Positions 1 to 17,710 of a stretch of 39,817 nt of DNA are shown piece by piece (position 1 is the stretch's first letter; each line of letters begins with the position of its first letter). This stretch comes from Escherichia phage TM1. The notes under the pieces were generated by a model, which had not been told where the DNA came from, made no database searches, and saw nothing but the letters and a program-made list of their open reading frames with translations. The stretch is from sequence record MT808983.1. One strand, 5' to 3'. A program made the position numbers and the translations under genes.

Positions 1-179
1 TCACAGTTCAAGAACCTCAAGTCTCCCCATAGGCCCTCTTTTAGTCCAGACCAAAGGCCCTACCCCAGTCTATCATAAGGTGGGACCGATGGTCAAGACT
101 TCAGGTCAACGATAGGTTGAGGCTATGGCTGGAGGTCGGGACGATAGGTAGGGACTATGGGTCTGCCTCTAAGTCCCTA
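1..179. repeat. Left direct terminal repeat (DTR), identical to 39639-39817
   Basis: First 179 nt (tcacagttcaagaacctcaag...ctaagtcccta) recur at the extreme 3' end of the window; T7-like phages have terminally redundant linear genomes. Confidence 0.85.
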
Positions 180-215
180 TCTGTATAGTGTTATAGTATA
201 ACATTACGTCCTACA

Positions 216-299
216 CCTACAGTCTCACTAACCTACAGTCTCACTAACCTACAGTAACAACCATAAGACACTCACATCCTACAGTCATAGACCTACAGT
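216..299. repeat. Array of 5 copies of the octamer CCTACAGT just inside the left DTR
   Basis: CCTACAGT at 216-223, 232-239, 248-255, 278-285, 292-299; a matching array lies just inside the right DTR. T7 carries short-repeat arrays in and beside its terminal repeats. Confidence 0.7.
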
Positions 300-410
300 T
301 AATAGACACAAAGCTATAGACTTAAGGTCAAAGAAATGTTAGTCAAAGACTATATCCTCTTACACCATGAGGCCGACGATAGCTTAATCAATATTATTTC
401 AAATTACCTA

Positions 411-440
411 TTGACTATAGGTCTAGACTATGGCTTAATA
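411..440 (+). promoter_or_regulatory. Candidate host sigma70 early promoter (TTGACT, 17-18 nt spacer, TTAATA)
   Basis: TTGACT at 411-416 followed by an AT-rich -10-like hexamer; located in the non-coding early leader where T7 has promoters A1-A3. Judged by eye only. Confidence 0.3.
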
Positions 441-551
441 GCTTCCGTCAACACGACACGGCAACAACCGGATAGTGAAGACGCCGGGTCATCCCGGTTA
501 AGTAGACAGCCTGATAAGTCATACGAACAACAGGCAGATGACAGAAAGTAG

Positions 552-581
552 TTGACAAGATGTACCGACTTAAAGTAGTAT
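552..581 (+). promoter_or_regulatory. Candidate host sigma70 early promoter (TTGACA, 18 nt spacer, TAGTAT)
   Basis: Perfect -35 TTGACA at 552-557 and a -10-like TAGTAT at 576-581; the downstream context (cttaaagt) resembles T7 A-promoter regions. Confidence 0.35.
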
Positions 582-775
582 GTACCACATCAACACGAAA
601 CAACGGTGAGTCCCAACACTGAAACGGGATAGCACGGCGACGACAGCCAACGCAAATGCTCTTTAACAATCTGGATAAACTCTTAATGTGCGCCGATAGC
701 GACTAACTACAGGGTCTTTGAGTCTACATCTGAGGTCCCTGACTGATAGTCACTAACAACCTAAGAGGAATCATT

Positions 776-1057
776 ATGAGACTGAACAAAACTACGGCAG
801 AAGCCTTCCGCAAGGAGCTAGACTCAAGATTATTGCGTGGAGTGGAAGAAGAAGCAAAGCGCTATAAAGAGAATGGTCTAACGTTCAAACGATTTATGTG
901 GGATTGCTATCACGGGGTGGGTCATAAAAGGTCTCAGGAGATAATCACCAGCAACAATGCGGAAGTGCAAGTGATAGGAGGATATATGGCTAACGTGAAG
1001 GATTCTCACATAGAGACCATGCTTAAGAATGCACTTAAAGATGTAGCCTACGAGTGA
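776..1057 (+). CDS. Early protein of unknown function (93 aa), first early gene
   Basis: ATG at 776 preceded by AAGAGGAA; sits at the start of the early region upstream of the Ocr-like gene; no recognised motif. Confidence 0.6.
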   Translation: MRLNKTTAEAFRKELDSRLLRGVEEEAKRYKENGLTFKRFMWDCYHGVGHKRSQEIITSNNAEVQVIGGYMANVKDSHIETMLKNALKDVAYE

Positions 1058-1123
1058 TTAACTACAGGTCGTTAGCTTATAGCGGCCTGACTGATAGTCA
1101 CTAACAACTGAGAGGATATAACT

Positions 1124-1459
1124 ATGGAACGTAACGCTAACGCATACTATGACCTGCTGGCTGCAACTGTGAAAGCATTCAACGAGCGCATCCAGTACGA
1201 CCAACTGACTCAAGATGATGACTACTACGATGCACTGCATGAGGTTGTCGATGGAATGGTTCCGCACTATTACCACGAGATTTTCACGGTGATGGCCGCT
1301 GATGGTATAGACCACGAGTTCGAAGACTCTGGGCTGATGCCTGAGACCAAGGACGTAACGCGTATATTACAAGCTCGCATCTATGAGGCGCTTTACAACG
1401 ATGTGTCTAATAGCTCAGATGTGGTCTGGTTTGAGCCTACTGAGGAGGACTGCGAGTGA
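1124..1459 (+). CDS. ocr: Ocr-like anti-restriction DNA mimic (T7 gp0.3 homolog, 111 aa)
   Basis: Acidic protein containing [43 protein letters not shown], which closely matches the recalled core of T7 Ocr ([43 protein letters not shown]); SD GAGAGGA before the ATG. Confidence 0.85.
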   Translation: [111 protein letters not shown]

Positions 1460-1620
1460 TGGTAACTTATGGTCTCTGCCAGCACCACGTCACCAACGCC
1501 CGGCTTATGGTCAAGACCGGGCAGTTAAACCACGATGCGACTATGCGTTACCTGAAAGCGGTCTATGAGGGCCGCAAGCGAATACACGACAGCTTACACG
1601 CTGAGGACAAACCACAATGA
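1459..1620 (+). CDS. Small early ORF (53 aa), unknown function
   Basis: ATG overlaps the Ocr stop (TGATG); ends 1618-1620 overlapping the next start. Below the 60-aa cut-off of the supplied ORF track; supported only by tight gene packing. Confidence 0.35.
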   Translation: MVTYGLCQHHVTNARLMVKTGQLNHDATMRYLKAVYEGRKRIHDSLHAEDKPQ

Positions 1621-1808
1621 TAACTGAAGGTTCAATCATAGAATACAGATGTGACCACGGGTATATCCTGAAGGGTAAAGTAACGCAGGTATACACGTCT
1701 GTAACTGGTAAGCGATGCGTTGAGTTAACTAGCGGTGTGCGCTTAGGTCTGCATGAGTGTAGGCTGTTAAACGAGACGCAAGCGCCTACACGACAGCTTA
1801 CACACTGA
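1617..1808 (+). CDS. Small early protein (63 aa), unknown function
   Basis: ATG at 1617 preceded by the repeated leader ctgaggacaaaccacaATG; lies in the T7 gene 0.4-0.7 position. Confidence 0.5.
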   Translation: MITEGSIIEYRCDHGYILKGKVTQVYTSVTGKRCVELTSGVRLGLHECRLLNETQAPTRQLTH

Positions 1809-1820
1809 GGACAAGTAAAC

Positions 1821-1946
1821 ATGTACCAGATAACTTATAGCAGTGAACAGGCGTTCTACGATGGATGCTACGAGATGATGAAGCGCGGGGCTTGCTACGT
1901 GGCTAACCACCATAGCTTGACCATAACGCTGACAGGTGGATACTGA
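1821..1946 (+). CDS. Small early ORF (41 aa, MYQITYSSEQAFYDGCYEMMKRGACYVANHH...), unknown function
   Basis: ATG at 1821 preceded by a second copy of the repeated leader (ctgaggacaagtaaacATG); stop TGA at 1944-1946. Confidence 0.35.
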   Translation: MYQITYSSEQAFYDGCYEMMKRGACYVANHHSLTITLTGGY

Positions 1947-2103
1947 GTGATAAACGAGAGGTCATCTTTCTGATAGGTGGCCTCAAAGATTATCACTTAC
2001 ATTGATAGGGGTTAACTATGAGTATTGGACATTGGGTATGCCTAGCGCCAGTTATCTTGATGATAGGTTATGGGATATACGATTGTATTAAACGGAAATC
2101 ACT

Positions 2104-2301
2104 ATGAGTAGCGCACTATTGACAGCCATAGGCTATGGACTTATCGCCTACGTGCTGATGAGAGACATCAACAAGGCACGTAAAGTCTACAAATTCAACT
2201 ATGTACGTCTGGGTCGCTGGACTGTACGTCAACCTAACGGACGATTCATGCGTAACTTAGCGAACGTCTGGGATATAGCAACTCTTGGGAGCAAACTGTA
2301 A
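2104..2301 (+). CDS. Small early protein (65 aa) with hydrophobic N-terminus, unknown function
   Basis: ORF with N-terminal LLTAIGYGLIAYVLM hydrophobic stretch; weak RBS; stop overlaps the next start (TAATG). Confidence 0.45.
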   Translation: MSSALLTAIGYGLIAYVLMRDINKARKVYKFNYVRLGRWTVRQPNGRFMRNLANVWDIATLGSKL

Positions 2302-2561
2302 TGAAAACCGTATACACTCACAAATCATCAAGCCGTAGCCGCATGGAGCAAGCCCAGCGTGATATGTTCTTACATCGTCGAATGATGGCAGAGGGGCATG
2401 AGTCTGAGCTGATGTACCTGCTGTATGGTGGACGACCAATCACCGACGATGGTAAACTTCTGGTCTCAGGCTGGAAGGCGATATACCAACGGTCAACCAT
2501 CAAGCACACGACTCACGGTGACTTCAGCCATCTTCACGCTAACCAACTGATATGCAAGTAA
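2301..2561 (+). CDS. Early protein (86 aa), unknown function
   Basis: ATG overlaps the preceding stop; last early ORF before the RNAP gene. No kinase motifs, so it is not a T7 gp0.7 homolog. Confidence 0.5.
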   Translation: MKTVYTHKSSSRSRMEQAQRDMFLHRRMMAEGHESELMYLLYGGRPITDDGKLLVSGWKAIYQRSTIKHTTHGDFSHLHANQLICK

Positions 2562-2566
2562 TTCTG

Positions 2567-2590
2567 ACTTAACTATCACTATAGGACTCA
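2567..2590 (+). promoter_or_regulatory. Phage-RNAP promoter (ttaACTATCACTATAGGact) immediately upstream of the RNAP gene
   Basis: Matches the 11-member promoter family of this genome (core ACTATCACTATAGG); predicted +1 G at 2584. Confidence 0.7.
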
Positions 2591-2658
2591 AGGTCTAAGA
2601 CTCCAAGTGAAAGACCAAAGAGACTTTAAGTGAAAGACTAATAACAAGGACTTTAAGT

Positions 2659-5340
2659 ATGAGCGTCATCTCTATTGACAAACACGACTTCTCTGATGTG
2701 TCGAACGCCATTGAGCCGTTTAACCTGCTGGCTGACCACTACGGGCAAGACCTTGCAGTCAAGCAGCTTCAGCTTGAGCATGAGGCATACACTGAAGGCG
2801 AGCGACGTTTCATCAAGAACCTTGAGCGCCAGACCGAGCGCGGTGAGATGGCAGACAATCAGGTCGCCAAGCCTTTGATGCAGACTCTGGTCCCTAAGAT
2901 TGCGCAAGCCGTCAAGGAGTGGCATGAAGGCCCAGACGGGAAGCTGTCAACCTCTCGTCCTAGCGTAGCGTTCACCATGTTGAGCACTGAAGATAAGGCC
3001 GTCAAGGACCGCTCTCTGCGCATCTCCTGTGAGTCTGCTGCGGTTATCATACTGAAGGTCATCCTCTCCAAGCTGGTAAAGCCTGAAGGGATACCGATTA
3101 CACCTATGGCCTCCGCGATAGGTCGCACACTTGAAGATGAGATCCGCTTCGGTCGAATCAGAGACAAGGAGCAGGAGCACTTCAAGAAGGCGATAGCTGA
3201 TAACCTGAACAAGCGAGCTGGGGCATCCTATAAGAAAGCCTACATGCAAGCGGTTGAGACCTCCATGCTGGAGCAAGGTCAACTGGAAGATGCGTGGGGA
3301 ACTTGGAGTCCGACAGAGGCGGTACACGTTGGCATCAAGATGCTTGAGATTGTCATACAGTCTACACAACTGGTCGATATTAAGCGTTATGGTGCTGGCA
3401 ATGCAGCGGCTGATGTTGAGATGGTCCACCTGTCAGACTTCTGGGTCAAGAAGATGGCACAACGTGGGTTCAGCCTTGCGGGTATCGCACCAGTCTATCA
3501 GCCTTGCGTAGTTCCACCTAAGCCGTGGACGGGTGTCGTAGGCGGTGGGTACTGGGCCAAAGGTCGCAGACCGTTACCATTGATTCGCTTAGGGTCTAAG
3601 TCTGCGGTAGCACGTTACGAAGACGTGTACATGCCGGAAGTCTATGACGCTGTGAACATCATCCAGAATACACCTTGGAAAGTTAACAAGAAGGTTCTGG
3701 ACGTGGTGAACATGGTCGAGAAGCTGAACAACACGCCTATTGACGACATCCCTCAGATGGAGCCACTAAAGCCTGAGGACTATGCGGGTGAGACCGATGA
3801 AGAACTGAAGGCATGGAAGAAAGCTGCTGCTGGTATCTATCGACGCGAGAAGGCCAGACAGTCGCGCAGATTGTCACTGAGCTTTATCGTCAACCAAGCG
3901 AACAAGTTCTCTCAGTTCAAGGCCATCTGGTTTCCATACAACATGGATTGGCGAGGTCGTGTCTACGCTGTCCCGATGTTCAACCCTCAGGGTAACGACA
4001 TGCAGAAGGGTCTCCTGACTCTGGCAGTCGGCAAGCCTATTGGTGCTGACGGTTTCAAATGGCTGAAGGTACACGGTGCAAACTGCGCGGGTGTTGATAA
4101 AGTCACCTTCGAGGAGCGAATCAAGTGGGTGGAAGACAATCACGACAACATTATGGCTGCTGCTAAGGCACCGATGGATAGTATTGAGTGGTGGGGCAAG
4201 TTAGACTCTCCGTTCTGCTTCCTTGCGTTCTGCTTCGAGTATGCTGGCGTAATGCACCACGGCCTGTCTTACTCCTGCTCGCTGCCGATAGCGTTCGATG
4301 GGTCCTGCTCTGGTATTCAGCACTTCAGCGCGATGCTTCGTGACCACATCGGTGGACATGCAGTAAACCTAACTCCATCCGGCAAGGTTCAAGACATCTA
4401 CCGCATCGTGTCTGACCGCATCGCGGAGGAACTCAAAGTCCTGCTTGTTAACGGTACGGATAACGAGATGGTGACTCACGAGGACAAGAAAACTGGTGAG
4501 ATTACCGAACGTCTCAAGCTGGGGACACGAGAGCTGGCCCGTCAGTGGCTGACCTACGGTATGTCACGTAAGGTCACTAAGCGTTCGGTCATGACTCTGG
4601 CCTACGGGTCGAAAGAGTATGGCTTCGCAGACCAAGTATACGAGGACATCGTGATGCCAGCGATTGACTCAGGGTCTGGCGCTATGTTCACTGAACCAAG
4701 CCAAGCGTCTCGCTTCATGGCTAAGATGATTTGGGAAGCTGTGAGTGTGACCGTGGTTGCTGCGGTTGACGCGATGAAGTGGCTTCAAGGTGCTGCCAAG
4801 CTGCTGGCTGCTGAGGTGAAGGACAAGAAGACTGGAGAAATCCTGAAGCCTTGCCTTCCGGTACACTGGGTAACACCTGATGGTTTCCCGGTCTGGCAGG
4901 AATACCGCAAGAAGGATACAACCCGTCTGAACCTGATGTTCTTAGGGTCATTCAACCTTCAGCCTACAGTCAACAAAGGCACGAAGAAAGAGCTGGACAA
5001 GCACAAGCAGGAGTCAGGCATTAGCCCGAACTTCGTCCACTCACAAGATGGCAGCCACCTGCGGAAGACTGTAGTCCACACTCATCGCAAGTATGGCGTG
5101 ATGTCATTCGCAGTGATTCACGATAGCTTCGGGACCATCCCGGCTGACGCTGAGTATCTGTTCCGTGGTGTCCGTGAGACGATGGTAGAGACATACCGCG
5201 ACAACGATGTGCTGCTTGACTTCTACGAGCAGTTTGAATACCAGCTTCACGAGAGCCAGCGCGACAAGCTGCCTGAGCTTCCGAAGAAAGGTAAACTAAA
5301 TATCGAAGACATCTTGTCTTCAGACTTTGCATTCGCTTAA
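2659..5340 (+). CDS. gp1: Single-subunit DNA-directed RNA polymerase (T7 gp1 homolog, 893 aa)
   Basis: Collinear similarity to recalled T7 RNAP along the whole length (e.g. PYNMDWRGRVYAVPMFNPQGNDM, DGSCSGIQHFSAMLRD, HDSFGTIPADA, C-terminal SDFAFA). Confidence 0.97.
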   Translation: MSVISIDKHDFSDVSNAIEPFNLLADHYGQDLAVKQLQLEHEAYTEGERRFIKNLERQTERGEMADNQVAKPLMQTLVPKIAQAVKEWHEGPDGKLSTSRPSVAFTMLSTEDKAVKDRSLRISCESAAVIILKVILSKLVKPEGIPITPMASAIGRTLEDEIRFGRIRDKEQEHFKKAIADNLNKRAGASYKKAYMQAVETSMLEQGQLEDAWGTWSPTEAVHVGIKMLEIVIQSTQLVDIKRYGAGNAAADVEMVHLSDFWVKKMAQRGFSLAGIAPVYQPCVVPPKPWTGVVGGGYWAKGRRPLPLIRLGSKSAVARYEDVYMPEVYDAVNIIQNTPWKVNKKVLDVVNMVEKLNNTPIDDIPQMEPLKPEDYAGETDEELKAWKKAAAGIYRREKARQSRRLSLSFIVNQANKFSQFKAIWFPYNMDWRGRVYAVPMFNPQGNDMQKGLLTLAVGKPIGADGFKWLKVHGANCAGVDKVTFEERIKWVEDNHDNIMAAAKAPMDSIEWWGKLDSPFCFLAFCFEYAGVMHHGLSYSCSLPIAFDGSCSGIQHFSAMLRDHIGGHAVNLTPSGKVQDIYRIVSDRIAEELKVLLVNGTDNEMVTHEDKKTGEITERLKLGTRELARQWLTYGMSRKVTKRSVMTLAYGSKEYGFADQVYEDIVMPAIDSGSGAMFTEPSQASRFMAKMIWEAVSVTVVAAVDAMKWLQGAAKLLAAEVKDKKTGEILKPCLPVHWVTPDGFPVWQEYRKKDTTRLNLMFLGSFNLQPTVNKGTKKELDKHKQESGISPNFVHSQDGSHLRKTVVHTHRKYGVMSFAVIHDSFGTIPADAEYLFRGVRETMVETYRDNDVLLDFYEQFEYQLHESQRDKLPELPKKGKLNIEDILSSDFAFA

Positions 5341-5354
5341 CAGGAGAGAGAGTT

Positions 5355-5555
5355 ATGGAATTTGCACACAAGCAGACTGGCGTTAAGGGTGGTACTCAAA
5401 TCGTGACCGTAACAGAACACAACGGCAAGGGTCTGGTGAAGACCACTGTCATCCCTACCGAGATGTCAAAGCAGCTTAACGTCCAGTTCAAGTGGCTGGT
5501 TAAGCAGGTGGAGCAGACGCACGAGCAAGTCCTTAAAGAGGCGGCAACCAAATGA
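5355..5555 (+). CDS. Hypothetical protein (66 aa) between RNAP and gene 1.1
   Basis: ATG with SD AGGAGAGAG; T7 has no gene at this position. Confidence 0.5.
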   Translation: MEFAHKQTGVKGGTQIVTVTEHNGKGLVKTTVIPTEMSKQLNVQFKWLVKQVEQTHEQVLKEAATK

Positions 5556-5629
5556 CATACCTACAGTTACTGGCCCTGTGGCTGGGAGCACTAGCAGTAT
5601 TCACTCTAATCCAACGCAGAAGAGGTTAA
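5552..5629 (+). CDS. Possible small hydrophobic peptide (25 aa, MTYLQLLALWLGALAVFTLIQRRRG)
   Basis: ATG overlaps the upstream stop (ATGA); predicted single transmembrane helix followed by a basic tail; very short, so tentative. Confidence 0.2.
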   Translation: MTYLQLLALWLGALAVFTLIQRRRG

Positions 5630-5633
5630 CCAT

Positions 5634-6113
5634 ATGTTCGGTAAGTCAAAACTTAAGGCACAAATCAAAGAGTTGAGCATGAAGGTGGCATACTTGGAGC
5701 GAGTCGTAGAGGTCCGGGACAAGGACAACGAGCGGCTGAAGGTTAAACTTGCTGAATCAGAGCGTAAGCGCCTAACGCCACCAGCTGCTGTAACTGTCAA
5801 GCGTATGGTAGGCATCAAGTTCAAGGCTCTATTCAACGGTATGTACCAACCGGCTGAGTTCAAGACTGGGCCGGGTAACTGTGGGAAGAACGTTAAGCAC
5901 TTCACCATCTCGAAGACTGAACGCACACTGACCATCCACCAGCACCACATAGACGGGTCTCAGAAAGACTTTGAGTACCGACTGAGCGACATCGACGGTA
6001 GAATCCAGTATGACTATGAGCTGGTTAAGGTATACGGTGAGGAGGCTGAACAGGAACGTATAGTCCAAGCCTTCCGCAACAGACACGATTCGTACCCTAA
6101 ACTATCACTATAG
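5634..6113 (+). CDS. Hypothetical protein (159 aa) with coiled-coil-like N-terminus, accessory gene
   Basis: ATG with SD GAAGAGG; its stop codon TAG lies inside the following phage promoter; no recognised motif. Confidence 0.6.
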   Translation: MFGKSKLKAQIKELSMKVAYLERVVEVRDKDNERLKVKLAESERKRLTPPAAVTVKRMVGIKFKALFNGMYQPAEFKTGPGNCGKNVKHFTISKTERTLTIHQHHIDGSQKDFEYRLSDIDGRIQYDYELVKVYGEEAEQERIVQAFRNRHDSYPKLSL

Positions 6114-6119
6114 GATTAG
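6096..6119 (+). promoter_or_regulatory. Phage-RNAP promoter (taaACTATCACTATAGGatt), phi1.1 position
   Basis: Family consensus; predicted +1 G at 6113; overlaps the 3' end of the upstream ORF. Confidence 0.8.
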
Positions 6120-6160
6120 ACTCAAGGTCATGACTCAAAGTCGTGGCCTTCATGATTAAC
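6118..6160 (+). ncRNA. Conserved leader hairpin, candidate RNase III processing site (R1.1 position)
   Basis: agactcaaggtcatgactcaaagtcgtggccttcatgattaa; one of three copies of a conserved AGACTCAAGGTCAT...GGCCTTTATGATTA element. Confidence 0.5.
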
Positions 6161-6195
6161 CCTAACCTAACGTAAACTACTGGAGATTTAACAAC

Positions 6196-6375
6196 ATGTA
6201 TCAGAACACTATCAACTTCGAGCGCATCCGTGAACGTCAACAGACTGAAGATTATATTCCGAAGGGCCGCAAGCTGAACAAGACCAAGCGTGGCGGTGGT
6301 GTCAAGGGTGCTTTCCGTAACGCTGAAGGCAAAGACTCTCTGGTCAACCAAGAGAAATACTTCGTAGGAGCATAA
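6196..6375 (+). CDS. gp1.1: gp1.1-like small basic protein (59 aa)
   Basis: Contains GRKLNKTKRGGG, matching the GRKLNKTKR motif recalled from T7 gp1.1; position after RNAP and the phi1.1 promoter. Confidence 0.7.
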   Translation: MYQNTINFERIRERQQTEDYIPKGRKLNKTKRGGGVKGAFRNAEGKDSLVNQEKYFVGA

Positions 6376-6378
6376 GCC

Positions 6379-6630
6379 ATGAGTAAACGTTGGTTATTCG
6401 ACGCATCACCGAGCCAGTGGTCATCGTTAGGCCGGACCCACAGAGAGATGAGCGAGGCAGGACTTGAGGTCAGAATGGATGACCTGCCGTGCTCCGGAAA
6501 GACTCTGGTCCAAATCATTGAAGCAGACGATGGGAGGATTCTGGTCACGCGCAAATTTAACGAACACGAAATCTTTAGCTGTGAGCAATGGTGCTTGCAG
6601 CAACTGAATGCTTACAGGAGCTGGAAATAA
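6379..6630 (+). CDS. gp1.2: gp1.2-like protein (83 aa; the T7 homolog is a dGTPase inhibitor)
   Basis: Position between gp1.1 and ligase, similar length and C-terminal WK as recalled for T7 gp1.2; internal similarity is weak. Confidence 0.55.
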   Translation: MSKRWLFDASPSQWSSLGRTHREMSEAGLEVRMDDLPCSGKTLVQIIEADDGRILVTRKFNEHEIFSCEQWCLQQLNAYRSWK

Positions 6631-7670
6631 TGACAACTATCAAGACTAACCCTCACCGCGCTGTAGACTACTCTGAGTCTGGCGTTAAGAAAGCGCTCGA
6701 AGCTGCCGGGTCACTGGAAGCTGAAGTGAAGTATGACGGTGTGCGGTTGAACCTTCCGGTGCTGCGAGAGGGTGAGACTTATTGGTTAAGCCGTGAGTCG
6801 AAACCTCTGCCTGCCTTGGAGTGGATGAACTCTGAGCTAGGTAATGCGTGGACCCAAGCTGACTGGCGATGGTTCCTGCGGCAAGCTGGATACGAAGGTG
6901 TGGGCCTGATGATCGATGGCGAGGTCATGATCAAAGGTGTGGACTTCAACACCTCCTCAGGTCTCATCCGAACGAAGTGGCTCAAGCCTAACAATGAGGA
7001 GGTCGCTGAATGCTATCCGGGCCGTGGCAAGAAGGTCCCGTTCTTGGTCTCCCGGTCACGACTTCAGGTTGTGGTATATGGCGTTGTCGATATGACAACC
7101 ATAGCAGACCCGAAAGCCGAAGGTCCTATCCATAGCGTCACACGCCTGAAGGCCGAAGCCATCGTCCCTCTCCTCCAGAAATACTTCCCGGAAATCGACT
7201 GGGTATTATCTGAGAGTCATACAGTGTATGACCTTGAGTCGCTCAACTCCCTGTACGAAGAGAAGCGTCTGGAAGGACACGAGGGTCTGGTAGTCAAGGA
7301 CCCACTTGGTAAATACAAGCGTGGCAAGAAGTCAGGCATGTGGAAAATGAAGCCTGAGGAGACAATCGACGGGACAGTGTGTGGCCTCGTGTGGGGGACT
7401 CCGGGTAAGGCTAACGAAGGTAAGGTGATTGGCTTTGAGGTGCTGCTTGAGGATGGCATGGTGGTTAATGCTTGTGGTCTGACTGAAGAACAGAAGGATG
7501 AGTTTACGGAAGCCTGTAACACTGATACATATATTCTCGGTGGAATCAATCCATACGAAGGCTGGCAGTGTGAAGTCCTTTTCATGGAGCGGTTCCCTGA
7601 TGGCTCACTCCGTCACCCTAGCTTCAAGTGCTGGCGAGGGACGGAAGACAACCCGACCGTTAAGAGTTAA
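6630..7670 (+). CDS. gp1.3: ATP-dependent DNA ligase (T7 gp1.3 homolog)
   Basis: MTTIKTNPHRAV...EVKYDGVR (KxDG adenylation motif) ...GHEGLVVKDP...KRGKKSGMWKMKPE...SLRHPSF, collinear with T7 ligase; start taken at ATG 6630 (T7-like MxxIKTNP) rather than the upstream alternative start in the ORF track. Confidence 0.92.
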   Translation: MTTIKTNPHRAVDYSESGVKKALEAAGSLEAEVKYDGVRLNLPVLREGETYWLSRESKPLPALEWMNSELGNAWTQADWRWFLRQAGYEGVGLMIDGEVMIKGVDFNTSSGLIRTKWLKPNNEEVAECYPGRGKKVPFLVSRSRLQVVVYGVVDMTTIADPKAEGPIHSVTRLKAEAIVPLLQKYFPEIDWVLSESHTVYDLESLNSLYEEKRLEGHEGLVVKDPLGKYKRGKKSGMWKMKPEETIDGTVCGLVWGTPGKANEGKVIGFEVLLEDGMVVNACGLTEEQKDEFTEACNTDTYILGGINPYEGWQCEVLFMERFPDGSLRHPSFKCWRGTEDNPTVKS

Positions 7671-7678
7671 CTAAACGT

Positions 7679-7720
7679 CAACCCAGTGGTCTTCGGACTG
7701 CTGGGTTTCTTTGCTTTATG
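7679..7720 (+). terminator. Rho-independent terminator, analog of T7 early terminator TE
   Basis: GC-rich hairpin (aacccagtggtcttcggactgctgggtt) followed by a T-rich tract tctttgcttt directly after ligase, where T7 has TE. Confidence 0.7.
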
Positions 7721-7753
7721 CTAGCAAGCTATCGTCTGGTCAACCAGCCTGAC

Positions 7754-7777
7754 CCTAAGCTATCACTATAGGACAAC
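7754..7777 (+). promoter_or_regulatory. Phage-RNAP promoter (taagCTATCACTATAGGaca)
   Basis: Family consensus with one upstream substitution; predicted +1 G at 7771. Confidence 0.7.
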
Positions 7778-7803
7778 CATAACTTCGACCTAAGGAGGCC
7801 GAC

Positions 7804-8064
7804 ATGTTTAAGAACTTAATGTTCAACCGTTATACCAGTACCTTCCACCTGTCCCACAACCCGTTCGCTTGCATTAAGCGCAACGAGAAGCTGGGATACT
7901 TCGGGAAGGCCGTTAAGCTGTCACCTACAGTCTTCGCTCTGATTACTCCGGGCAAAGCTGAAGAGGCTCGCCAGAAGCGTGAGACCAACGTACCTGTGGT
8001 CTACACTAAGTGGCCCCGCGTTCGTCTGTTCGTTGAGCTCGTGAAGGAGGTGGTAAATGGTTAA
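7804..8064 (+). CDS. Class II hypothetical protein (86 aa)
   Basis: Strong SD (AAGGAGG) before ATG 7804; first gene after the TE-like terminator. Confidence 0.6.
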   Translation: MFKNLMFNRYTSTFHLSHNPFACIKRNEKLGYFGKAVKLSPTVFALITPGKAEEARQKRETNVPVVYTKWPRVRLFVELVKEVVNG

Positions 8065-8392
8065 GCACAAGGAGTGGTGCCGCTGGGTCCTTAGGTTCGG
8101 TTCGTGCGACTGCGGCGCTGTTACCATCATCCCCGCCCCGAGCAGTAAAGATGACGGGGTACGCAAGCCATCCCACTATCAGGTCTTTGATGGCGTGGAA
8201 TCCATTGAGATTATCGCCCGGTCCATGACTGTCAGTGAGTTCCGTGGTTTCTGCATGGGTAACGTCCTGAAGTATCGACTCCGAGCTGGTAAGAAGTCAG
8301 AGCTGGCGACTATGGAGAAGGACCTGAACAAAGCAGCCTTCTATCAGGAGCTGTTCGACCTGCATAAAGGTAAGTGCTATGCTGCCGAGTGA
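8057..8392 (+). CDS. Hypothetical protein (111 aa); tentatively related to the C-terminal region of T7 gp1.7 nucleotide kinase (DUF3310-like)
   Basis: SD GGAGG before the ATG; motif NVLKYRLRAGKK...DLNKAAFY recalled as typical of the DUF3310/gp1.7 family. The assignment is from memory and unverified. Confidence 0.55.
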   Translation: MVKHKEWCRWVLRFGSCDCGAVTIIPAPSSKDDGVRKPSHYQVFDGVESIEIIARSMTVSEFRGFCMGNVLKYRLRAGKKSELATMEKDLNKAAFYQELFDLHKGKCYAAE

Positions 8393-8470
8393 GTGGTGCC
8401 TGGAGATGTACGAGAAGACTCTCAACCCGGACTACATTACGTTATACAACCAATGGAAGGAGCGTGGTTT

Positions 8471-8629
8471 ATGACTGAGGTTGAGAAGAAATACATCGTG
8501 GAGCTTGAGGGTCGCGTTCAGTCCTTCGAGGTTCCGGTGTACGCAAAGTCTCTTGAAGAGGCTGCCCTGAAGTCCCAAGAGTATGAGGACGCTGGGTTTG
8601 TGGTCGGACGGATTCGTCCTGAGACCTAA
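8471..8629 (+). CDS. gp2: gp2-like inhibitor of host RNA polymerase (52 aa)
   Basis: [33 protein letters not shown] parallels T7 Gp2 ([34 protein letters not shown]); start placed at ATG 8471 with SD AGGAGCG rather than the upstream alternative start. Confidence 0.75.
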
Positions 8630-8648
8630 ACTATCACTGTAGGACAGA
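8625..8648 (+). promoter_or_regulatory. Phage-RNAP promoter variant (taaACTATCACTgTAGGaca)
   Basis: Family consensus with A to G at -3; precedes the SSB gene. Confidence 0.6.
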
Positions 8649-8686
8649 CGTCCAGTTCGTAACTTTAAAATAGGAGATTTACACCG

Positions 8687-9385
8687 ATGGCTAAAGAGCA
8701 ACTGAAGACTTTCACCACTCCGGTAGCTGGTATCGTTGAGCCTTACGCATGGCTGAACAAAGCAGACACCAAGTTTAACGAGCGTGGTGAGCATAAGGTT
8801 AACCTGACATTCGACCTGAGCAACCCGAAGGTCCGTAAGATGATTGATGTCTTACAGAAGATTCACGACGATGCGTATGCGAAAGCACTCGCAGACCACG
8901 AGAAGAACCCACCTCAGGTTCAGCGTGGCAAGAAGCCTATTGAACCACGAGAAGGCGACATGCCGTGGATTGAGAATGGTGACGGTACTGTTACCCTGAA
9001 GTTCAAATGCTTTGCGTCTTACCTTAAAGACGGCAAGTCCGAGCCTATCGTATTACGGTTCTACGGCACTGATGCTAAACTCATCCGTGACGTCCCGAAT
9101 ATTGGCGCTGGGTCTAAGCTGAAGGTCAAGTTTAAAGTCCTGCCGTTCAAGTGGAACGCTGCGACTGGTGCAAGCGTTAAGCTCCAGCTTGAGTCCTGCC
9201 TTCTGGTAGAGCTGAAGGAGTGGAAAGGTGATGGTGCTGGTGGTGATGGTGGCTGGGGTGATGATGAAGACCTCGGTACTGGCTACAAAGCGTCAACCGA
9301 TGGTGACTTCGGGTCTGATGACTTCGGTGACGATGGCTCCGATGGCGCTGACGACTCTAACTCTGGTGGCGATTACGACTTCTAA
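8687..9385 (+). CDS. gp2.5: Single-stranded DNA-binding protein (T7 gp2.5 homolog, 232 aa)
   Basis: MAKEQ...GDMPWIENGDGTVTLKFKC...GSKLKVKFKVLPFKWNAATGASVKLQLESCLLVEL, with an acidic C-terminal tail ending DYDF, as in T7 gp2.5. Confidence 0.92.
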   Translation: MAKEQLKTFTTPVAGIVEPYAWLNKADTKFNERGEHKVNLTFDLSNPKVRKMIDVLQKIHDDAYAKALADHEKNPPQVQRGKKPIEPREGDMPWIENGDGTVTLKFKCFASYLKDGKSEPIVLRFYGTDAKLIRDVPNIGAGSKLKVKFKVLPFKWNAATGASVKLQLESCLLVELKEWKGDGAGGDGGWGDDEDLGTGYKASTDGDFGSDDFGDDGSDGADDSNSGGDYDF

Positions 9386-9831
9386 TGAAACTTAAAGAGA
9401 AACTGGAGGTTTACTCTGAGGTTTCTCCTACTGGGTGCTGGGAGTGGCAACTCTCCCGGTTCCCTGCTGGATATGGTCGAATATCAATAGGACGTCAGAA
9501 ACAGGACTACGCTCACCGAGTTTCATACAGGGAGTACAAAGGTCCGATACCTGATGGATTGGTTGTTAGACATAAATGTGATAACCCCTGCTGCTGTAAC
9601 CCTGAGCACCTTGAATTAGGTACGCAGAAGGACAACATGAGGGACTGCATGGAGAGAGGACGAAAGTCCAACCCTCCCGTATTCAAAGGAGAAGCTAATC
9701 ATAAGACTAAGCTGACCAAGGAAAACGTAGAGTTCATCTTAGAGTCGATGCTGCCAGCTACAGAACTAGCCAAGATGTTTGGAGTCACACCAGCAGCTAT
9801 AAACTGGAGGAGACAACATGGCTGGACGTAG
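9385..9831 (+). CDS. HNH homing endonuclease (148 aa)
   Basis: H-N-H core HRVSYREY...VVRHKCDNPCCCNPEHLELGTQKDN; ATG overlaps the SSB stop (TAATG). Confidence 0.85.
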   Translation: MKLKEKLEVYSEVSPTGCWEWQLSRFPAGYGRISIGRQKQDYAHRVSYREYKGPIPDGLVVRHKCDNPCCCNPEHLELGTQKDNMRDCMERGRKSNPPVFKGEANHKTKLTKENVEFILESMLPATELAKMFGVTPAAINWRRQHGWT

Positions 9832-10270
9832 CATAAGCAGAGGACATCAAGTAGGGGCCTACCGCTCAGGACTTGAAGCAAAGAACCAAGAGTGGCTTGA
9901 GAAGAACGGCGTGAAGGCTGAATACGAGGCTTATAAAATAGGCTACGTAGTACCGTCCAGCGACCATTTCTACACGCCAGACTTTGTGTTGCCTAACGGT
10001 ATCATCGTGGAGACCAAAGGTATCTTCGATAGTGATGACCGTAAGAAGCACCTTCTGGTACGAGAACAGCACCCAGAGTTAGACATTCGGTTCGTGTTCT
10101 CAAGTTCCCGCTCCAAGTTATACAAAGGGTCTCCGACCACGTATGGCGCATGGTGCGAAAAGAACGGCTATAAGTATGCCGATAAGTTCATCCCGGTTGA
10201 GTGGCTTCGAGAGGCGACTGTACGTCTGCCTTCGGGCATACTCATCCCCAAGAAGAAAGGAGTTAAGTAA
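9818..10270 (+). CDS. gp3: Endonuclease I, Holliday-junction resolvase (T7 gp3 homolog)
   Basis: AYRSGLEAKNQEWLEKNG...YTPDFVLPNGIIVETKG...DDRKKHLLVREQHPELDIRFVFSSSRSKLYKGSPTTYG, collinear with T7 gp3. Confidence 0.92.
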   Translation: MAGRSISRGHQVGAYRSGLEAKNQEWLEKNGVKAEYEAYKIGYVVPSSDHFYTPDFVLPNGIIVETKGIFDSDDRKKHLLVREQHPELDIRFVFSSSRSKLYKGSPTTYGAWCEKNGYKYADKFIPVEWLREATVRLPSGILIPKKKGVK

Positions 10271-10725
10271 TGACTACCTGTAAAGACCTTGAAGTTGGAA
10301 CACGTTACAGATTCTCAAAGAACACCCTGCTGAATAACCCCGGATTCACTGATGCTGTTTTCGAAAAGCGAGAAGACCATAGCGTACTTGTGGAGAAGGG
10401 GTGGCATCCTGAGGATTACATCGGTGAGATTACAAGCTGGAATGGTCACGATACCTACAGTGTAGAAGTTGTTGACCAGCCTCAGGTCCTGCCAGCTTCG
10501 AGCGTACCACCTGTGACTGTGAAGCGTGAAGTCCTGACCATCGACAAGATTGGTGTAGGCCAGACGTTCATCGTCCACGGAAAGCCTGAAGAAGTTTACG
10601 TGAAGATTAGCAACTCACACGTCTTCAACCATAAGCGTCTCCAGATGCACACCACGGACGCACAACGCTTCACCCAGCACCTGAATCTGGTGGTCGTAGA
10701 ATTGGTGGTGTACAATGGTAAGTAA
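10270..10725 (+). CDS. Hypothetical protein (151 aa) between endonuclease I and lysozyme
   Basis: SD AAGGAG; start and stop overlap the neighbours; no counterpart at this position in T7. Confidence 0.6.
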   Translation: MTTCKDLEVGTRYRFSKNTLLNNPGFTDAVFEKREDHSVLVEKGWHPEDYIGEITSWNGHDTYSVEVVDQPQVLPASSVPPVTVKREVLTIDKIGVGQTFIVHGKPEEVYVKISNSHVFNHKRLQMHTTDAQRFTQHLNLVVVELVVYNGK

Positions 10726-11173
10726 GGTACAGTTCAACCCACGGTCCCGGACTGACGCTATCTTCGTTCACTGTTCGGCTACCAAGCCAGATATGGACAT
10801 CGGGGTAGAGACCATCCGTATGTGGCACAAGCAGCAAGGATGGCTGGACGTAGGCTACCACTTTATCATCAAGCGCGATGGTACTGTGGAAGAGGGTCGC
10901 CCGGTCAATGTCGTAGGGTCACATGTTAAGGACTGGAACTCAAAGTCCGTAGGCGTCTGCCTTGTAGGTGGAATCAACGCTAAGGGTCAGTTTGAAGCTA
11001 ACTTCACTCCAGCCCAGATGAACTCCCTTCGCAACAAGCTGGCTGACCTGAAGGCCTTGTATCCTCAGGCAGAAATCAAAGCACACCATGACGTAGCACC
11101 TAAGGCGTGTCCAAGTTTCGACTTGCAACGCTGGTTGACTACCAACGAACTGATCACTTCCGACAACGGTTAA
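10715..11173 (+). CDS. gp3.5: N-acetylmuramoyl-L-alanine amidase / T7 lysozyme homolog (gp3.5)
   Basis: VQFNPRSRTDAIFVHCSATKP...WLDVGYHFIIKRDGTVEEGR...AHHDVAPKACPSFDL, near-collinear with T7 lysozyme. Confidence 0.93.
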   Translation: MVSKVQFNPRSRTDAIFVHCSATKPDMDIGVETIRMWHKQQGWLDVGYHFIIKRDGTVEEGRPVNVVGSHVKDWNSKSVGVCLVGGINAKGQFEANFTPAQMNSLRNKLADLKALYPQAEIKAHHDVAPKACPSFDLQRWLTTNELITSDNG

Positions 11174-11197
11174 TAAATTCTAAAGGAGAACAACTCA

Positions 11198-11413
11198 ATG
11201 ATTAAACTTATCGAATTTCTTGGTCGTCTGGTGGTGCGTGGTTATCGTCGTGCTGCGGTACTGGAACGAAAGGTAGAAAAGAAGAATGCTGACGGTGCGA
11301 CTGATGCTGCTGCTCTGGCTGACAAGCTGACCATCGCGTCACTGGAAGCTGGCATGAAGGCACGTCAAGCTGACACCAAAGCTGACCAGTTGGCTCAGTT
11401 CTTCAAAGCCTAA
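11198..11413 (+). CDS. Small alanine-rich protein (71 aa), unknown function
   Basis: Strong SD AAAGGAGAA; its stop codon TAA lies inside the next promoter. Confidence 0.55.
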   Translation: MIKLIEFLGRLVVRGYRRAAVLERKVEKKNADGATDAAALADKLTIASLEAGMKARQADTKADQLAQFFKA

Positions 11414-11431
11414 ACTATCACCTTAGGGATG
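11408..11431 (+). promoter_or_regulatory. Phage-RNAP promoter variant (taaACTATCACcTtAGGGat)
   Basis: Two substitutions in the -4/-3 region; upstream of the tRNA-like element and the primase-helicase gene; probably weaker. Confidence 0.45.
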
Positions 11432-11476
11432 GGACCATGAGTCCTTTCCCTTTGTTCGCATTTGTGATTAAGAAAT

Positions 11477-11555
11477 GTCTCCATAGCTCAAACGGTAGAG
11501 CGGCGGGTCATGATGGCCTATTGCGATTAGGGTTCGAATCCCCGTGGAGACGCCA
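11477..11555 (+). tRNA. tRNA-like element (possible degenerate tRNA, candidate anticodon CAT; anticodon arm ambiguous)
   Basis: Perfect 7-bp acceptor stem (gtctcca/tggagac), T8, D-arm gctc-aaacggta-gagc with GG, T-loop GGTTCGAATCC, discriminator G and encoded CCA; but 26 nt between the D- and T-arms with imperfect anticodon stem pairing. Confidence 0.4.
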
Positions 11556-11566
11556 ATAAGGAGTGA

Positions 11567-13270
<1,704 letters not shown>

Positions 13271-13281
13271 GGAGGAGTACA

Positions 13282-13446
13282 TTGCTAAGAAAACTTAAAG
13301 CTCGCTACCATCGGTTCATGTACAAATGGTGGAGTGATGAAGCAACCTGCCTGTCCAACATTCTGGGAGACCAGAGGTTCTACTCTAAGGCATGGAAGAA
13401 AGCTAACCGGAAGTTTATGTATCACTTCTTGCGTACAGACTTCTAG
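13282..13446 (+). CDS. Small basic protein (about 54 aa), unknown function
   Basis: TTG start 7 nt after AGGAGG (alternative GTG at 13249, as in the ORF track); lies between the helicase and DNA polymerase genes. Confidence 0.35.
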   Translation: MLRKLKARYHRFMYKWWSDEATCLSNILGDQRFYSKAWKKANRKFMYHFLRTDF

Positions 13447-13450
13447 GTCT

Positions 13451-13498
13451 AGACTCAAGGTCATTCACATCGATTGGCCTTTATGATTAGACTAAACG
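13451..13498 (+). ncRNA. Conserved leader hairpin, candidate RNase III site (R4.7 position, upstream of DNA polymerase)
   Basis: agactcaaggtcattcacatcgattggcctttatgattagact; second copy of the conserved element. Confidence 0.5.
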
Positions 13499-13510
13499 CG
13501 GAGGATTAAC

Positions 13511-15679: not shown

Positions 15680-15688
15680 GGAGGTAAG

Positions 15689-16003
15689 ATGGGAGGTGTA
15701 GCAACCTTACGCTTCCATAAGATGCCTACTGGATGTATCGTCTGTGTATCTCACAAGAGGAACCAAGATGGATACTTTCGGTACACGGTAGGATCTGCCC
15801 GTAAGCCAGGACGCAAGGCGTTTATGTTTCACCGATGGGTGTGGGAACAGAAGCGCGGGCCTATACCAGATGGCTATGAGATAGACCATTTGTGTTTGAA
15901 TCGTGGGTGCTGTAACGTAGAGCATCTGCAATGTATTCCAAAGCGTGAGCACGTCATCAAGACGAACCGTGAGCGCAAACTTGTCAAGAAGGAGTGTCAC
16001 TAA
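15689..16003 (+). CDS. HNH homing endonuclease (104 aa)
   Basis: FHRWVWEQ...IDHLCLNRGCCNVEHLQCIPKREH (H-N-H motif); SD AAGGAGG; occupies the T7 gene 5.3 position. Confidence 0.85.
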   Translation: MGGVATLRFHKMPTGCIVCVSHKRNQDGYFRYTVGSARKPGRKAFMFHRWVWEQKRGPIPDGYEIDHLCLNRGCCNVEHLQCIPKREHVIKTNRERKLVKKECH

Positions 16004-16320
16004 TGGCTATGACAAAACGTATGCGAGTTTCGTTCTCGCTGTGTACTGTATTATCAACTAAAGACATCGAGGGCCTCAATGGGGCTCTCTGCAAGCTGAG
16101 TCGTAAGGTTCTGAACGGAGAGAAGACCACTGGCTTCGAGCGTAAGATGGTAGAGGTAGGTGTTACAGAGGGTATGGAAGCTGTGGTAGAGCTTGTCTTA
16201 AAGAAAGGCATTGTTGACGGGCTGAAAGAAGATCTTACGTCCTACTCAAATAAGCCCAGCTTCGGAGATTTCAGAGTGGAGTTCAAGCTATCTCCTGCTA
16301 CTGTACGGGAGGTGTTCTAA
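16003..16320 (+). CDS. gp5.5-like protein (105 aa)
   Basis: Starts MAMTKR, as recalled for T7 gp5.5; position after DNA polymerase and HNH; ATG overlaps the upstream stop. Confidence 0.55.
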   Translation: MAMTKRMRVSFSLCTVLSTKDIEGLNGALCKLSRKVLNGEKTTGFERKMVEVGVTEGMEAVVELVLKKGIVDGLKEDLTSYSNKPSFGDFRVEFKLSPATVREVF

Positions 16321-16439
16321 TGGCTATCAAGCGTATCAAGAATAAGAAGGAGTGCGACCACTCTTTCGTAGTTAAAGGTGTCATTGGTTTTGCTGCCGAG
16401 AGTGTATTAAATGTGGATATTTTGAGGTTCAAGCAATGA
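16320..16439 (+). CDS. Small ORF (39 aa), unknown
   Basis: SD GGGAGGTG 7 nt upstream; ATG overlaps the previous stop (TAATG); very short. Confidence 0.3.
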   Translation: MAIKRIKNKKECDHSFVVKGVIGFAAESVLNVDILRFKQ

Positions 16440-16645
16440 GTGAATACTTACGGGTCCTAGCGGCCCTTAAGTCCTGCCCGAAGACATTTCAGTCCAACTA
16501 TGTGCGCAACAACGCTGCACTTGTGGCTGAGGCTGCGAGTCGTGGACATCTAAGCTGCCTGTCTATGGATGGGCGTAACAACGGTGCGTGGGAGATTACC
16601 GCTGCTGGCACCAAGTTCCTGAACCAACACGGAGGCTGTCTATGA
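16436..16645 (+). CDS. gp5.7: gp5.7-like protein (69 aa)
   Basis: MSEYLRVLAALKSCPKTFQSNYVRNNAALVAEAASRGHLSC...GAWEITAAGTKFL, near-identical in pattern to recalled T7 gp5.7. Confidence 0.85.
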   Translation: MSEYLRVLAALKSCPKTFQSNYVRNNAALVAEAASRGHLSCLSMDGRNNGAWEITAAGTKFLNQHGGCL

Positions 16646-17636: not shown

Positions 17637-17710
17637 TCTACTGGGCCGGACTTCTGGCCCTTTACTGCATGTACAAGTGGTTCGGGTCGAACAACCGTCC
17701 TAAACACTGA
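17618..17710 (+). CDS. gp6.3-like small membrane peptide (30 aa)
   Basis: GTG start 7 nt after AAGGAGG; VIYWAGLLALYCMYKW resembles the hydrophobic T7 gp6.3 as recalled. Confidence 0.35.
   Translation: MDTIHVIYWAGLLALYCMYKWFGSNNRPKH

What the first reader, a model, noticed from the sequence alone, without database searches (positions are those of the whole stretch)
1573..1823. Second duplicated leader preceding two consecutive small early ORFs
CGCAAGCG..TACACGACAGCTTACAC(G/A)CTGAGGACAA occurs at about 1573-1610 and 1777-1810, each ending 7-11 nt before an ATG (1617 and 1821) and overlapping the 3' end of the preceding ORF in a different frame. A roughly 35-bp repeat that includes a GAGG Shine-Dalgarno suggests duplicated translation-initiation or processing regions, or recent tandem duplication.
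Basis: seen in the sequence. Interest (0 to 1): 0.45.

Follow-up and report, generated by a model that had tools for sequence, protein, structure and literature searches.

The report
Recombination scar flanking an inserted phage gene
The 38-base repeat is real, but it is not a special leader: it is the tail end of a T7-like phage's gene 0.4 homologue, copied a second time when a foreign small gene was spliced in beside it, which is an ordinary footprint of phage gene shuffling.

Summary
A 38-nt direct repeat lies at 1573-1610 and 1777-1814, with 35/38 bases identical, a spacing of 204 nt and no chance matches in shuffles. The window is a Kayfunavirus (T7-like) genome. The repeat is the 3' end of a gp0.4-homologue gene (A, 1456-1620). 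That end encodes RKRIHDSLHAEDK and contains the GAGG Shine-Dalgarno used by whichever gene follows. The local doubling was seen in none of 153 GenBank relatives. Most of the relatives examined have A followed directly by C (the 41-aa gene at 1821). Others have A-B, A-D, or A-B-C with a different B-C spacer. Here gene B (1617-1808) sits between two copies of the A end. Homology to other B genes stops at about codon 52-53, a few bases before copy 2. Copy 2 still reads RKRLHDSLHTEDK* in A's frame, behind a frame full of stops. B's synonymous divergence from all other B alleles is 0.61-0.96, against 0.04-0.31 for A and C. A second, distinct phage contig carries the same structure. Neither copy folds, unlike the nearby RNase III-like hairpins. 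Verdict: this is a scar of unequal or illegitimate recombination between genomes carrying different cassettes in one slot. It kept C's ribosome-binding site and gave B a new 10-11-aa tail. Interest is low.

The parts
1456..1620 (+). Gene A, a 54-aa homologue of T7 gp0.4. Its last 13-15 codons are copy 1 of the repeat.
   Evidence: ORF. phrog_5058 E=2.9e-27. BLASTP to T7 gene 0.4 gives 39% identity over 41 aa, E=7e-6. Homologues on related contigs carry a precomputed PF26807 Phage_T7_GP04 hit. It follows ocr (1124-1459, PF08684), as gene 0.4 does in T7.
1573..1610 (+). Repeat copy 1: the native 3' end of gene A (RKRIHDSLHAEDK), containing the SD GAGG (1603-1606) for gene B.
   Evidence: The same A-end to B-start junction is found in Salmonella phage PRF-SP1 and in contigs L012, L014 and L016.
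1617..1808 (+). Gene B, 63 aa, a small conserved phage protein (phrog_14219). Roughly the first 52-53 codons are native. The last 10-11 codons are read from copy 2 in a shifted frame, and the stop TGA (1806-1808) overlaps the SD of C.
   Evidence: tblastn homology to PRF-SP phages covers residues 1-53 only. The protein alignment shows native ends ...RLLK*...RLLNKPRTE* and others, against the window's ...RLLNETQAPTRQLTH*. pN is about 0.05 and pS about 0.6-0.96 against other B alleles.
1773..1777 (.). Novel joint between the end of B homology and the start of the duplicated A fragment. It can only be placed to within a few nt.
   Evidence: B homology ends at or just after codon 52 (AAC, 1770-1772). 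The repeat begins at 1777. The bases GAGA at 1773-1776 are of ambiguous origin.
1777..1818 (+). Repeat copy 2 (1777-1814) plus a TAA stop: an orphan 3' fragment of gene A. In A's frame it still reads RKRLHDSLHTEDK*. It carries the SD GAGG (1807-1810) for gene C.
   Evidence: translation; the same frame upstream, 1621-1776, has 8 stops. It is collinear with the A-C junction of SEA1f, Peacock, KKP_3263, EPr2 and TM1.
1821..1946 (+). Gene C, 41 aa. It is the usual immediate downstream neighbour of A in the Kayfunaviruses examined.
   Evidence: pN is 0-0.02 and pS 0.09-0.31 against Kayfunavirus relatives.
1944..1999 (+). RNase III-like hairpin that forms the conserved right boundary of the variable slot.
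   Evidence: Folding 1940-2020 gives -27.4 kcal/mol, z -4.46. The same sequence follows B in PRF-SP1 and L013, C in the window and L016, and D in pO91.

Best explanation
The repeat is a recombination scar. In Kayfunaviruses there is a variable slot between the gp0.4-like gene A and the next RNase III-like hairpin. Different genomes fill it with different small early genes: C, B, B then C, or D. Whatever sits first in the slot is translated from the GAGG embedded in the last codons of A. In the lineage of this window, a genome carrying A-B and a genome carrying A-C recombined unequally. The joint linked a point at about codon 52-53 of B to a point 38 nt before the end of A in the A-C genome. 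The mechanism was illegitimate or template-switch recombination during mixed infection. The product is A-B-[last 38 nt of A]-C. Three consequences follow. First, C keeps its native ribosome-binding site and spacing. Second, B loses its short native C-terminus and gains a 10-11-aa tail read out of frame from the A fragment, stopping at a TGA that overlaps C's SD. Third, B is now bracketed by 38-nt direct repeats. These repeats should allow its precise loss, regenerating the common A-C arrangement. Shown here: the anatomy, single copy in relatives, the alternative slot contents, the foreign divergence of B, the absence of RNA structure, and a second genome with the same structure. Inferred: the order of events, the recombination mechanism, translational coupling, and instability.
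For: (1) Six relatives aligned have A abutting C. The window differs from them by a clean 204-nt insertion bounded by the repeat. (2) The A 3' end was found once per genome in 153 GenBank records. The only record with two places is a 78.7-kb double-length assembly. Every fetched locus with an A gene matches both copies at a single position, except L010. (3) B homologues elsewhere also follow A directly, using the same A-end and SD (PRF-SP1, L012, L014, L016, L018). (4) A native B-C junction exists with a different spacer, TAATACAAGAGGTTCCTCTAA(T/C). It is shared by a Kayfunavirus-like contig (L016) and by two contigs carrying an S-AdoMet lyase gene (L011, L017). The window's B-C junction is therefore secondary. 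(5) Homology to B stops at about residue 52-53, a few bases before copy 2. (6) Copy 2 keeps A's reading frame and protein sequence (RKRLHDSLHTEDK*), while the same frame just upstream is full of stops. (7) There is a divergence discontinuity. The window's B has pS 0.61-0.96 against every other B and pN about 0.05. A has pS 0.04-0.20 and C has pS 0.09-0.31 against Kayfunavirus relatives. (8) L010 is an independent, mosaic second genome with the same structure. (9) There is a precedent in T7: spontaneous early-region deletions and duplications bounded by 11-12-bp direct repeats (PMC7261183).
Against: No sampled genome is a close donor of this B allele; the best match is 81% at the nucleotide level. 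The parents are therefore inferred, not observed. No clear microhomology is visible at the joint, and 1773-1776 is of ambiguous origin. Each copy has private substitutions not seen in the relatives examined, so the age and direction of the event cannot be read from the copies. Scans for the joint in IMG/VR and JGI metagenomes found nothing, so the structure is known from only two assemblies. Expression of B and C and deletion between the repeats are untested.
Confidence: 0.8

Rival explanations
1. The window arrangement is ancestral. The common A-C genomes arose from it by deletion between the 38-nt repeats, and the A-B genomes by another deletion. The repeat would then be an older duplication rather than a recent recombination product.
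For: Deletion between the two copies would give exactly the A-C junction seen in relatives. T7-group early regions do lose segments between direct repeats (PMC7261183). A weak 12-nt repeat (1765-1776 against 1948-1959, D20) could in principle mediate loss of the A fragment and C.
Against: The structure is seen in 2 assemblies, against 153 single-copy GenBank genomes. A cleaner native B-C junction is shared by two different lineages. The B allele is far more diverged than its flanks. A-B genomes end B differently (NKPRTE* followed by the hairpin), not as a D20-mediated deletion would predict. An orphan out-of-frame A fragment still has to be created by a duplication or recombination event first.
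Confidence: 0.1
2. The repeat is a selected, functional duplicated leader: an RNase III or other processing site, or a structured translation-initiation element placed before each small early gene.
For: Both copies end with GAGG 10 nt before an ATG. T7-like early mRNAs are cut between genes at repeated hairpins, and the window has such repeated hairpins at 695-780, 1050-1128 and 1940-2020.
Against: There is no stable or shared structure. MFE is -13.6 and -8.4 kcal/mol for 81-nt windows, with z -0.35 and +0.92, and the two copies fold differently. There is no Rfam match. There is no enrichment of sigma-70-like sites and none lies within either copy, no terminator-like site, and no match to the phage promoter consensus. 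In relatives the sequence is simply the coding end of gene A and is single-copy. Other early genes in the window use different upstream sequences.
Confidence: 0.04
3. It is a recent intragenomic tandem duplication of a roughly 204-nt unit, with later divergence of one copy into gene B.
For: The spacing is a multiple of 3 and the repeat lies at equivalent ends of two neighbouring small ORFs.
Against: Outside the 38 nt the two units share no similarity; the best local match is 11 nt. B has its own homologues in many phages and is under strong purifying selection. It therefore did not arise from A.
Confidence: 0.03
4. It is an assembly or chimera artefact joining reads from two co-occurring phage variants, one A-B and one A-C, at the shared 38-mer.
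For: Repeats shared by variants can mislead assemblers. The two variant types do exist in nature.
Against: A chimera at the shared 38-mer would yield A-B or A-C, not both genes in series with a novel B/A-fragment joint at about 1776/1777. An independent contig from another run has the identical structure in a different genomic background.
Confidence: 0.03

Closest known systems
Spontaneous deletions and duplications bounded by short direct repeats in the T7 early region (Studier's H1 deletion, 12-bp repeats AGGAAGTCGAGG; duplication between 11-bp repeats AAGTCGCACGA; Isaev et al. 2020, PMC7261183)
   Same: It involves the same genome region (genes 0.3-0.7) of the same phage subfamily. The rearrangements create or remove small early genes, produce fused or re-tailed ORFs, and are marked by direct repeats.
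   Different: In T7 the short repeats pre-exist and mediate the event within one genome. Here the 38-nt repeat is the product of joining two different genomes (A-B and A-C types). It is three times longer, and it carries a coding fragment plus a ribosome-binding site.
Mosaic module exchange at conserved boundary sequences in tailed phages (modular theory; conserved 'linker' sequences at gene boundaries in lambdoid phages). Cited from general knowledge; no paper was read here.
   Same: A variable slot with alternative cassettes (B, C, B-C, D) lies between two conserved flanks: the gp0.4 3' end with its SD on the left and an RNase III-like hairpin on the right.
   Different: Normal exchange replaces one cassette with another. 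Here an off-register crossover stacked two cassettes and duplicated the left boundary.
T7 RNase III processing sites (R0.3, R0.5, R1 and others) that precede early genes
   Same: They are repeated sequences upstream of consecutive early genes. The window has such elements at about 698-760, 1053-1105 and 1944-1999.
   Different: The 38-mer has no hairpin, lies inside coding sequence and is single-copy in relatives. It is not a member of this class.
Translational coupling with an SD embedded in the end of the upstream gene (general bacterial and phage operon feature)
   Same: GAGG lies within the last codons of the upstream ORF. The stop and start are 0-13 nt apart: ATGA overlap at 1617-1620, and TGA at 1806-1808 with ATG at 1821.
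   Different: Nothing unusual, except that the second SD is carried on an orphan gene fragment.

Membership tests
RNase III processing site of T7-like early mRNA | A stable hairpin of about 50-60 nt, usually with an internal loop, folding much better than shuffled sequence | tested here: not met
   the 81-nt windows around the copies give z -0.35 and +0.92, and the 38-mers alone give z -0.72 and +1.09. Positive controls in the same window score z -3.41 (1050-1128) and z -4.46 (1940-2020).
RNase III processing site of T7-like early mRNA | Located between genes, not inside coding sequence | tested here: not met
   Both copies lie inside ORFs. In relatives the sequence is the conserved C-terminal coding end of gene A.
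Tandem duplication of a gene unit | The two adjacent units are homologous along their whole length | tested here: not met
   Only 38 of 204 nt match. The A body and B body share at best 11 nt. A and B belong to different PHROG families.
Recombination scar / boundary duplication at a mosaic cassette junction | The repeated sequence is single-copy in related genomes, and the segment between the copies is absent there | tested here: met
   153 GenBank records have the sequence once per genome, and the six aligned relatives show a clean 204-nt gap.
Recombination scar / boundary duplication at a mosaic cassette junction | The enclosed segment has a different evolutionary history from its flanks | tested here: met
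   B has pS 0.61-0.96 against all other B alleles, whereas A has pS 0.04-0.20 and C has pS 0.09-0.31 against Kayfunavirus relatives.
Recombination scar / boundary duplication at a mosaic cassette junction | Candidate parental arrangements exist | tested here: met
   A-C: SEA1f, Peacock, KKP_3263, EPr2, TM1. A-B: PRF-SP1, L012, L014, L018. No close donor of this exact B allele was found.
Recombination scar / boundary duplication at a mosaic cassette junction | The event is demonstrated directly: parents and product observed, or deletion between the repeats observed | not testable with these tools
   This needs mixed-infection or passage experiments.
Translation-initiation region (SD plus start codon) | A purine-rich SD at a workable distance upstream of a start codon of a conserved gene | tested here: met
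   GAGG at 1603-1606 and ATG at 1617; GAGG at 1807-1810 and ATG at 1821; 10-nt spacers in both. B and C are conserved genes under purifying selection. Actual ribosome use was not tested.
T7 gp0.4 family (gene A, host of the repeat) | Sequence homology to T7 gp0.4 and a position immediately after ocr | tested here: met
   BLASTP gives E=7e-6 and 39% identity over 41 aa. The synteny matches. Homologues on related contigs have precomputed PF26807 hits. The local Pfam copy gave no hit. FtsZ inhibition was not tested.

The most novel reading that the evidence does not exclude
The gp0.4 3' end with its SD, and the RNase III-like hairpin, could be more than passive conserved flanks. Together they might act as a dedicated exchange slot for small host-takeover or anti-defence genes in Kayfunaviruses, loosely like an integron. 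Off-register crossovers at the left flank would then routinely stack cassettes, each arriving with a ready-made ribosome-binding site. The window would be a caught-in-the-act example. The out-of-frame A fragment would also supply a functional new C-terminus for B.
Probability: 0.12. Interest if true: 0.45.

Novelty: new member of a known kind. Interest (0 to 1): 0.2.

Why it matters
The repeat gives a base-resolved example of how T7-like phages add a small early gene without disturbing expression of its neighbour. The crossover carried along the upstream gene's end, and so carried a working ribosome-binding site. It also gave the inserted gene a new tail. The finding marks the position after gp0.4 as a variable slot with at least four alternative contents, which helps in annotating Kayfunavirus early regions. 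It predicts that gene B is genetically unstable in this phage, because it is flanked by 38-nt repeats. It does not reveal a new regulatory element or mechanism.

Tried and rejected
RNA structure and processing site: seven segments were folded. The repeat copies are unstructured and the flanking hairpins serve as positive controls, so this reading was rejected. Rfam at E<=1 over 1-6000 gave no match.

Promoter or terminator: the sigma-70 scan of 1300-2150 gave 3 sites against 1.7 expected. None lies within either repeat copy, and there were no terminators. The phage promoter consensus TAAACTATCACTATAGGA occurs 10 times in the window, never at the repeat.

Tandem duplication: A and B share no similarity outside the 38-mer.

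Other carriers of the joint: a scan of IMG/VR with protein B and with the joint sequence found nothing. A JGI metagenome scan with the joint found nothing. Only the exact-protein look-up found a second contig.

Local Pfam: no hits for A, B or C. Precomputed annotations do list PF26807 for A homologues.

D20 mini-repeat (1765-1776 against 1948-1959): this was considered as a remnant of the hairpin edge from the A-B parent. Most of it codes for the conserved LLN of B, so it is judged probably chance and was left out of the model.

Microhomology at the joint: none is convincing. 'GAGA' against 'GAGGGC' would need an extra 2-nt deletion.

GenBank record with two hits to the A end: it is a 78.7-kb double-length assembly, not a local duplication.

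Full report
**Context.** The window is a complete-length T7-like genome of the genus Kayfunavirus. Its core (6000-26000) is about 94% identical to Escherichia phages pO91, P762 and ST31. It has a T7-type RNA polymerase at 2659-5340 and ten copies of a phage promoter consensus. The finding lies in the early region. That region reads: ocr (1124-1459; PF08684), gene A (1456-1620, 54 aa), gene B (1617-1808, 63 aa), gene C (1821-1946, 41 aa), and then a strong hairpin at about 1944-1999.

**Observation.** The repeat is real. The two copies are 1573-1610 and 1777-1814. They are 38 nt long and ungapped, with 35/38 bases identical and a spacing of 204 nt. The 38-mer with up to 3 mismatches occurs only at these two places and never in 100 shuffles. 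Each copy contains GAGG exactly 10 nt before an ATG: 1603-1606 before 1617, and 1807-1810 before 1821. Copy 1 lies in the reading frame of A. Copy 2 lies in B in a different frame. An independent contig from another sequencing run (L010) has the identical structure. It is 99.8% identical over window 1109-2305, only 92-95% identical on either side, and lacks window 759-1108. The structure therefore exists in at least two distinct phage genomes and is not an assembly artefact.

**What the 38-mer is.** A is a homologue of T7 gp0.4. The evidence is phrog_5058 at E=2.9e-27, BLASTP to T7 gene 0.4 at E=7e-6, the same position after ocr as in T7, and PF26807 recorded for its homologues. Copy 1 is the end of that gene and encodes RKRIHDSLHAEDK, followed by PQ and a stop.

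In the six Kayfunaviruses aligned, the same sequence ends gene A and C starts 2-3 nt after the stop. The window differs from them by a clean 204-nt insertion delimited by the repeat. The A end was found once per genome in 153 GenBank records. The single record with two hits is a 78.7-kb double-length assembly. Every fetched locus that has an A gene matches both copies at one and the same position, except L010.

Copy 2, read in A's frame, still encodes RKRLHDSLHTEDK and a stop. The same frame immediately upstream (1621-1776) has eight stops. Copy 2 is therefore an orphan 3' fragment of gene A.

**What lies between the copies.** B is a real gene of an independent family. The evidence is phrog_14219, homologues in Salmonella Kayfunaviruses and more distant ones in Klebsiella and other phages, and nine homologous proteins (cluster representatives) found in the public protein collection. 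Against eight B alleles, pN is about 0.05-0.09 while pS is 0.61-0.96. This indicates strong purifying selection and deep divergence. In contrast, A differs from relatives by pS 0.04-0.20, and C differs from Kayfunavirus relatives by pS 0.09-0.31. The divergence jumps at both edges of B.

Homology to other B genes ends at about residue 52-53. Native B proteins end ...RLLK*...RLLNKPRTE*...RLMNKS* and similar. The window's B ends ...RLLNETQAPTRQLTH*, and that tail is read from copy 2 in a shifted frame.

**The slot.** The segment between A and the hairpin varies among relatives.

| Slot content | Where seen |
|---|---|
| C alone | SEA1f, Peacock, KKP_3263, EPr2, TM1 |
| B alone | PRF-SP1 and contigs L012, L014, L018 |
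| Unrelated 50-aa gene D | pO91 |
| B then C, with a native spacer | L016, L011, L017 |
| B, A fragment, then C | the window and L010 |

In the A-B genomes, B starts from the same A end and SD as in the window. The native B-C spacer is TAATACAAGAGGTTCCTCTAA(T/C). It occurs in a Kayfunavirus-like contig with ocr and A (L016) and in two contigs carrying an S-AdoMet lyase gene (L011, L017). Because a different B-C junction is shared by two lineages, the window's B-[A fragment]-C junction is a secondary construction. It must have drawn its right half from an A-C type junction.

**Mechanism proposed.** An off-register (illegitimate or template-switch) crossover occurred between a genome with A-B and a genome with A-C. 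It joined B at about codon 52-53 to a point 38 nt before the end of A. All other exchanges needed are ordinary homologous ones and leave no trace.

The result stacks both cassettes. C keeps its native SD, spacing and start. B keeps its own, which is copy 1, as in the A-B genomes. B ends at a TGA that overlaps C's SD, 13 nt before C's ATG, so re-initiation or coupling is plausible. The 38-nt direct repeats bracketing B should allow its precise loss, restoring the common A-C form.

Spontaneous deletions and duplications bounded by 11-12-bp direct repeats are documented for the same region of T7 (PMC7261183). The order of events, the mechanism, the coupling and the instability are inferences. The anatomy and the comparative pattern are shown.

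**Rivals.** Four alternatives were considered.

- A dedicated leader or RNase III site is rejected. The copies do not fold (z -0.35 and +0.92) and fold differently from each other. The repeated hairpins at 1050-1128 and 1940-2020 give z -3.4 and -4.5. Rfam, promoter and terminator scans are negative.
- A tandem duplication of a unit is rejected, because only 38 of 204 nt are shared.
- An ancestral double-copy state, with A-C and A-B derived by deletion, cannot be fully excluded. It is disfavoured by rarity (2 assemblies against 153 single-copy genomes), by the shared native B-C spacer, and by the foreign divergence of B.
- An artefact is excluded by L010.

**Limits.** No close donor of this B allele was found; the best match is 81% at the nucleotide level. 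No microhomology is evident at the joint, and 1773-1776 is of ambiguous origin. The joint sequence was not found in IMG/VR or JGI metagenomes.

**Verdict.** The duplication does include an initiation region. The feature is an ordinary footprint of mosaic recombination: a new instance of a known kind of event, useful for annotation and for predicting instability of gene B, and of low general interest.

Noticed in passing
window 698-787 and 1053-1135 (with 759-1108): The other 'duplicated leader' (repeats D1 and D11, spacing 348) consists of RNase III-like hairpins plus an SD ahead of gene 776-1057 and ahead of ocr. The related contig L010 lacks exactly window 759-1108, that is, one hairpin unit plus the 93-aa gene. 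This gene is therefore also a cassette that comes and goes with its own leader.
   Followed up: partly
window 1944-1999: There is a strong hairpin (-27.4 kcal/mol, z -4.46) whose sequence is conserved downstream of B, C or D in different phages. It is probably the RNase III site equivalent to T7 R0.5 and forms the right boundary of the variable slot.
   Followed up: partly
window 1617-1772 (gene B): The B family keeps C12-x-H14, C34 and H46-x-C48 invariant or nearly invariant across homologues. B may therefore be a small metal-binding protein. Distant homologues occur in Przondovirus (Klebsiella) and in an 86-kb Escherichia phage.
   Followed up: no
L020 (Escherichia phage pO91) 862-1014: pO91 is the closest GenBank relative of the window's core. 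In the same slot after gene A it carries a different 50-aa gene (MKMYNVVVVNNK...), with an A-end/ATGA junction almost identical to the window's A/B junction.
   Followed up: partly
window 1456-1620 (gene A): The abstract of a 2026 paper (PMC13423816) reports that T7 Gp0.4, of which A is a homologue, is sensed by the CapRel(Ebc) defence protein. This may add selective pressure on this part of the early region.
   Followed up: no
window 200-300: Short tandem or dispersed repeats (ACCTACAGTCTCACTA twice, and related CCTACAGT motifs) lie near the left end, ahead of the early promoters. They may be left-end repeat elements of the kind seen in T7-like genomes.
   Followed up: no
window 2569-2586 and nine other sites: The phage RNA-polymerase promoter consensus TAAACTATCACTATAGGA occurs 10 times on the + strand, against 0.03 expected by chance.
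   Followed up: partly
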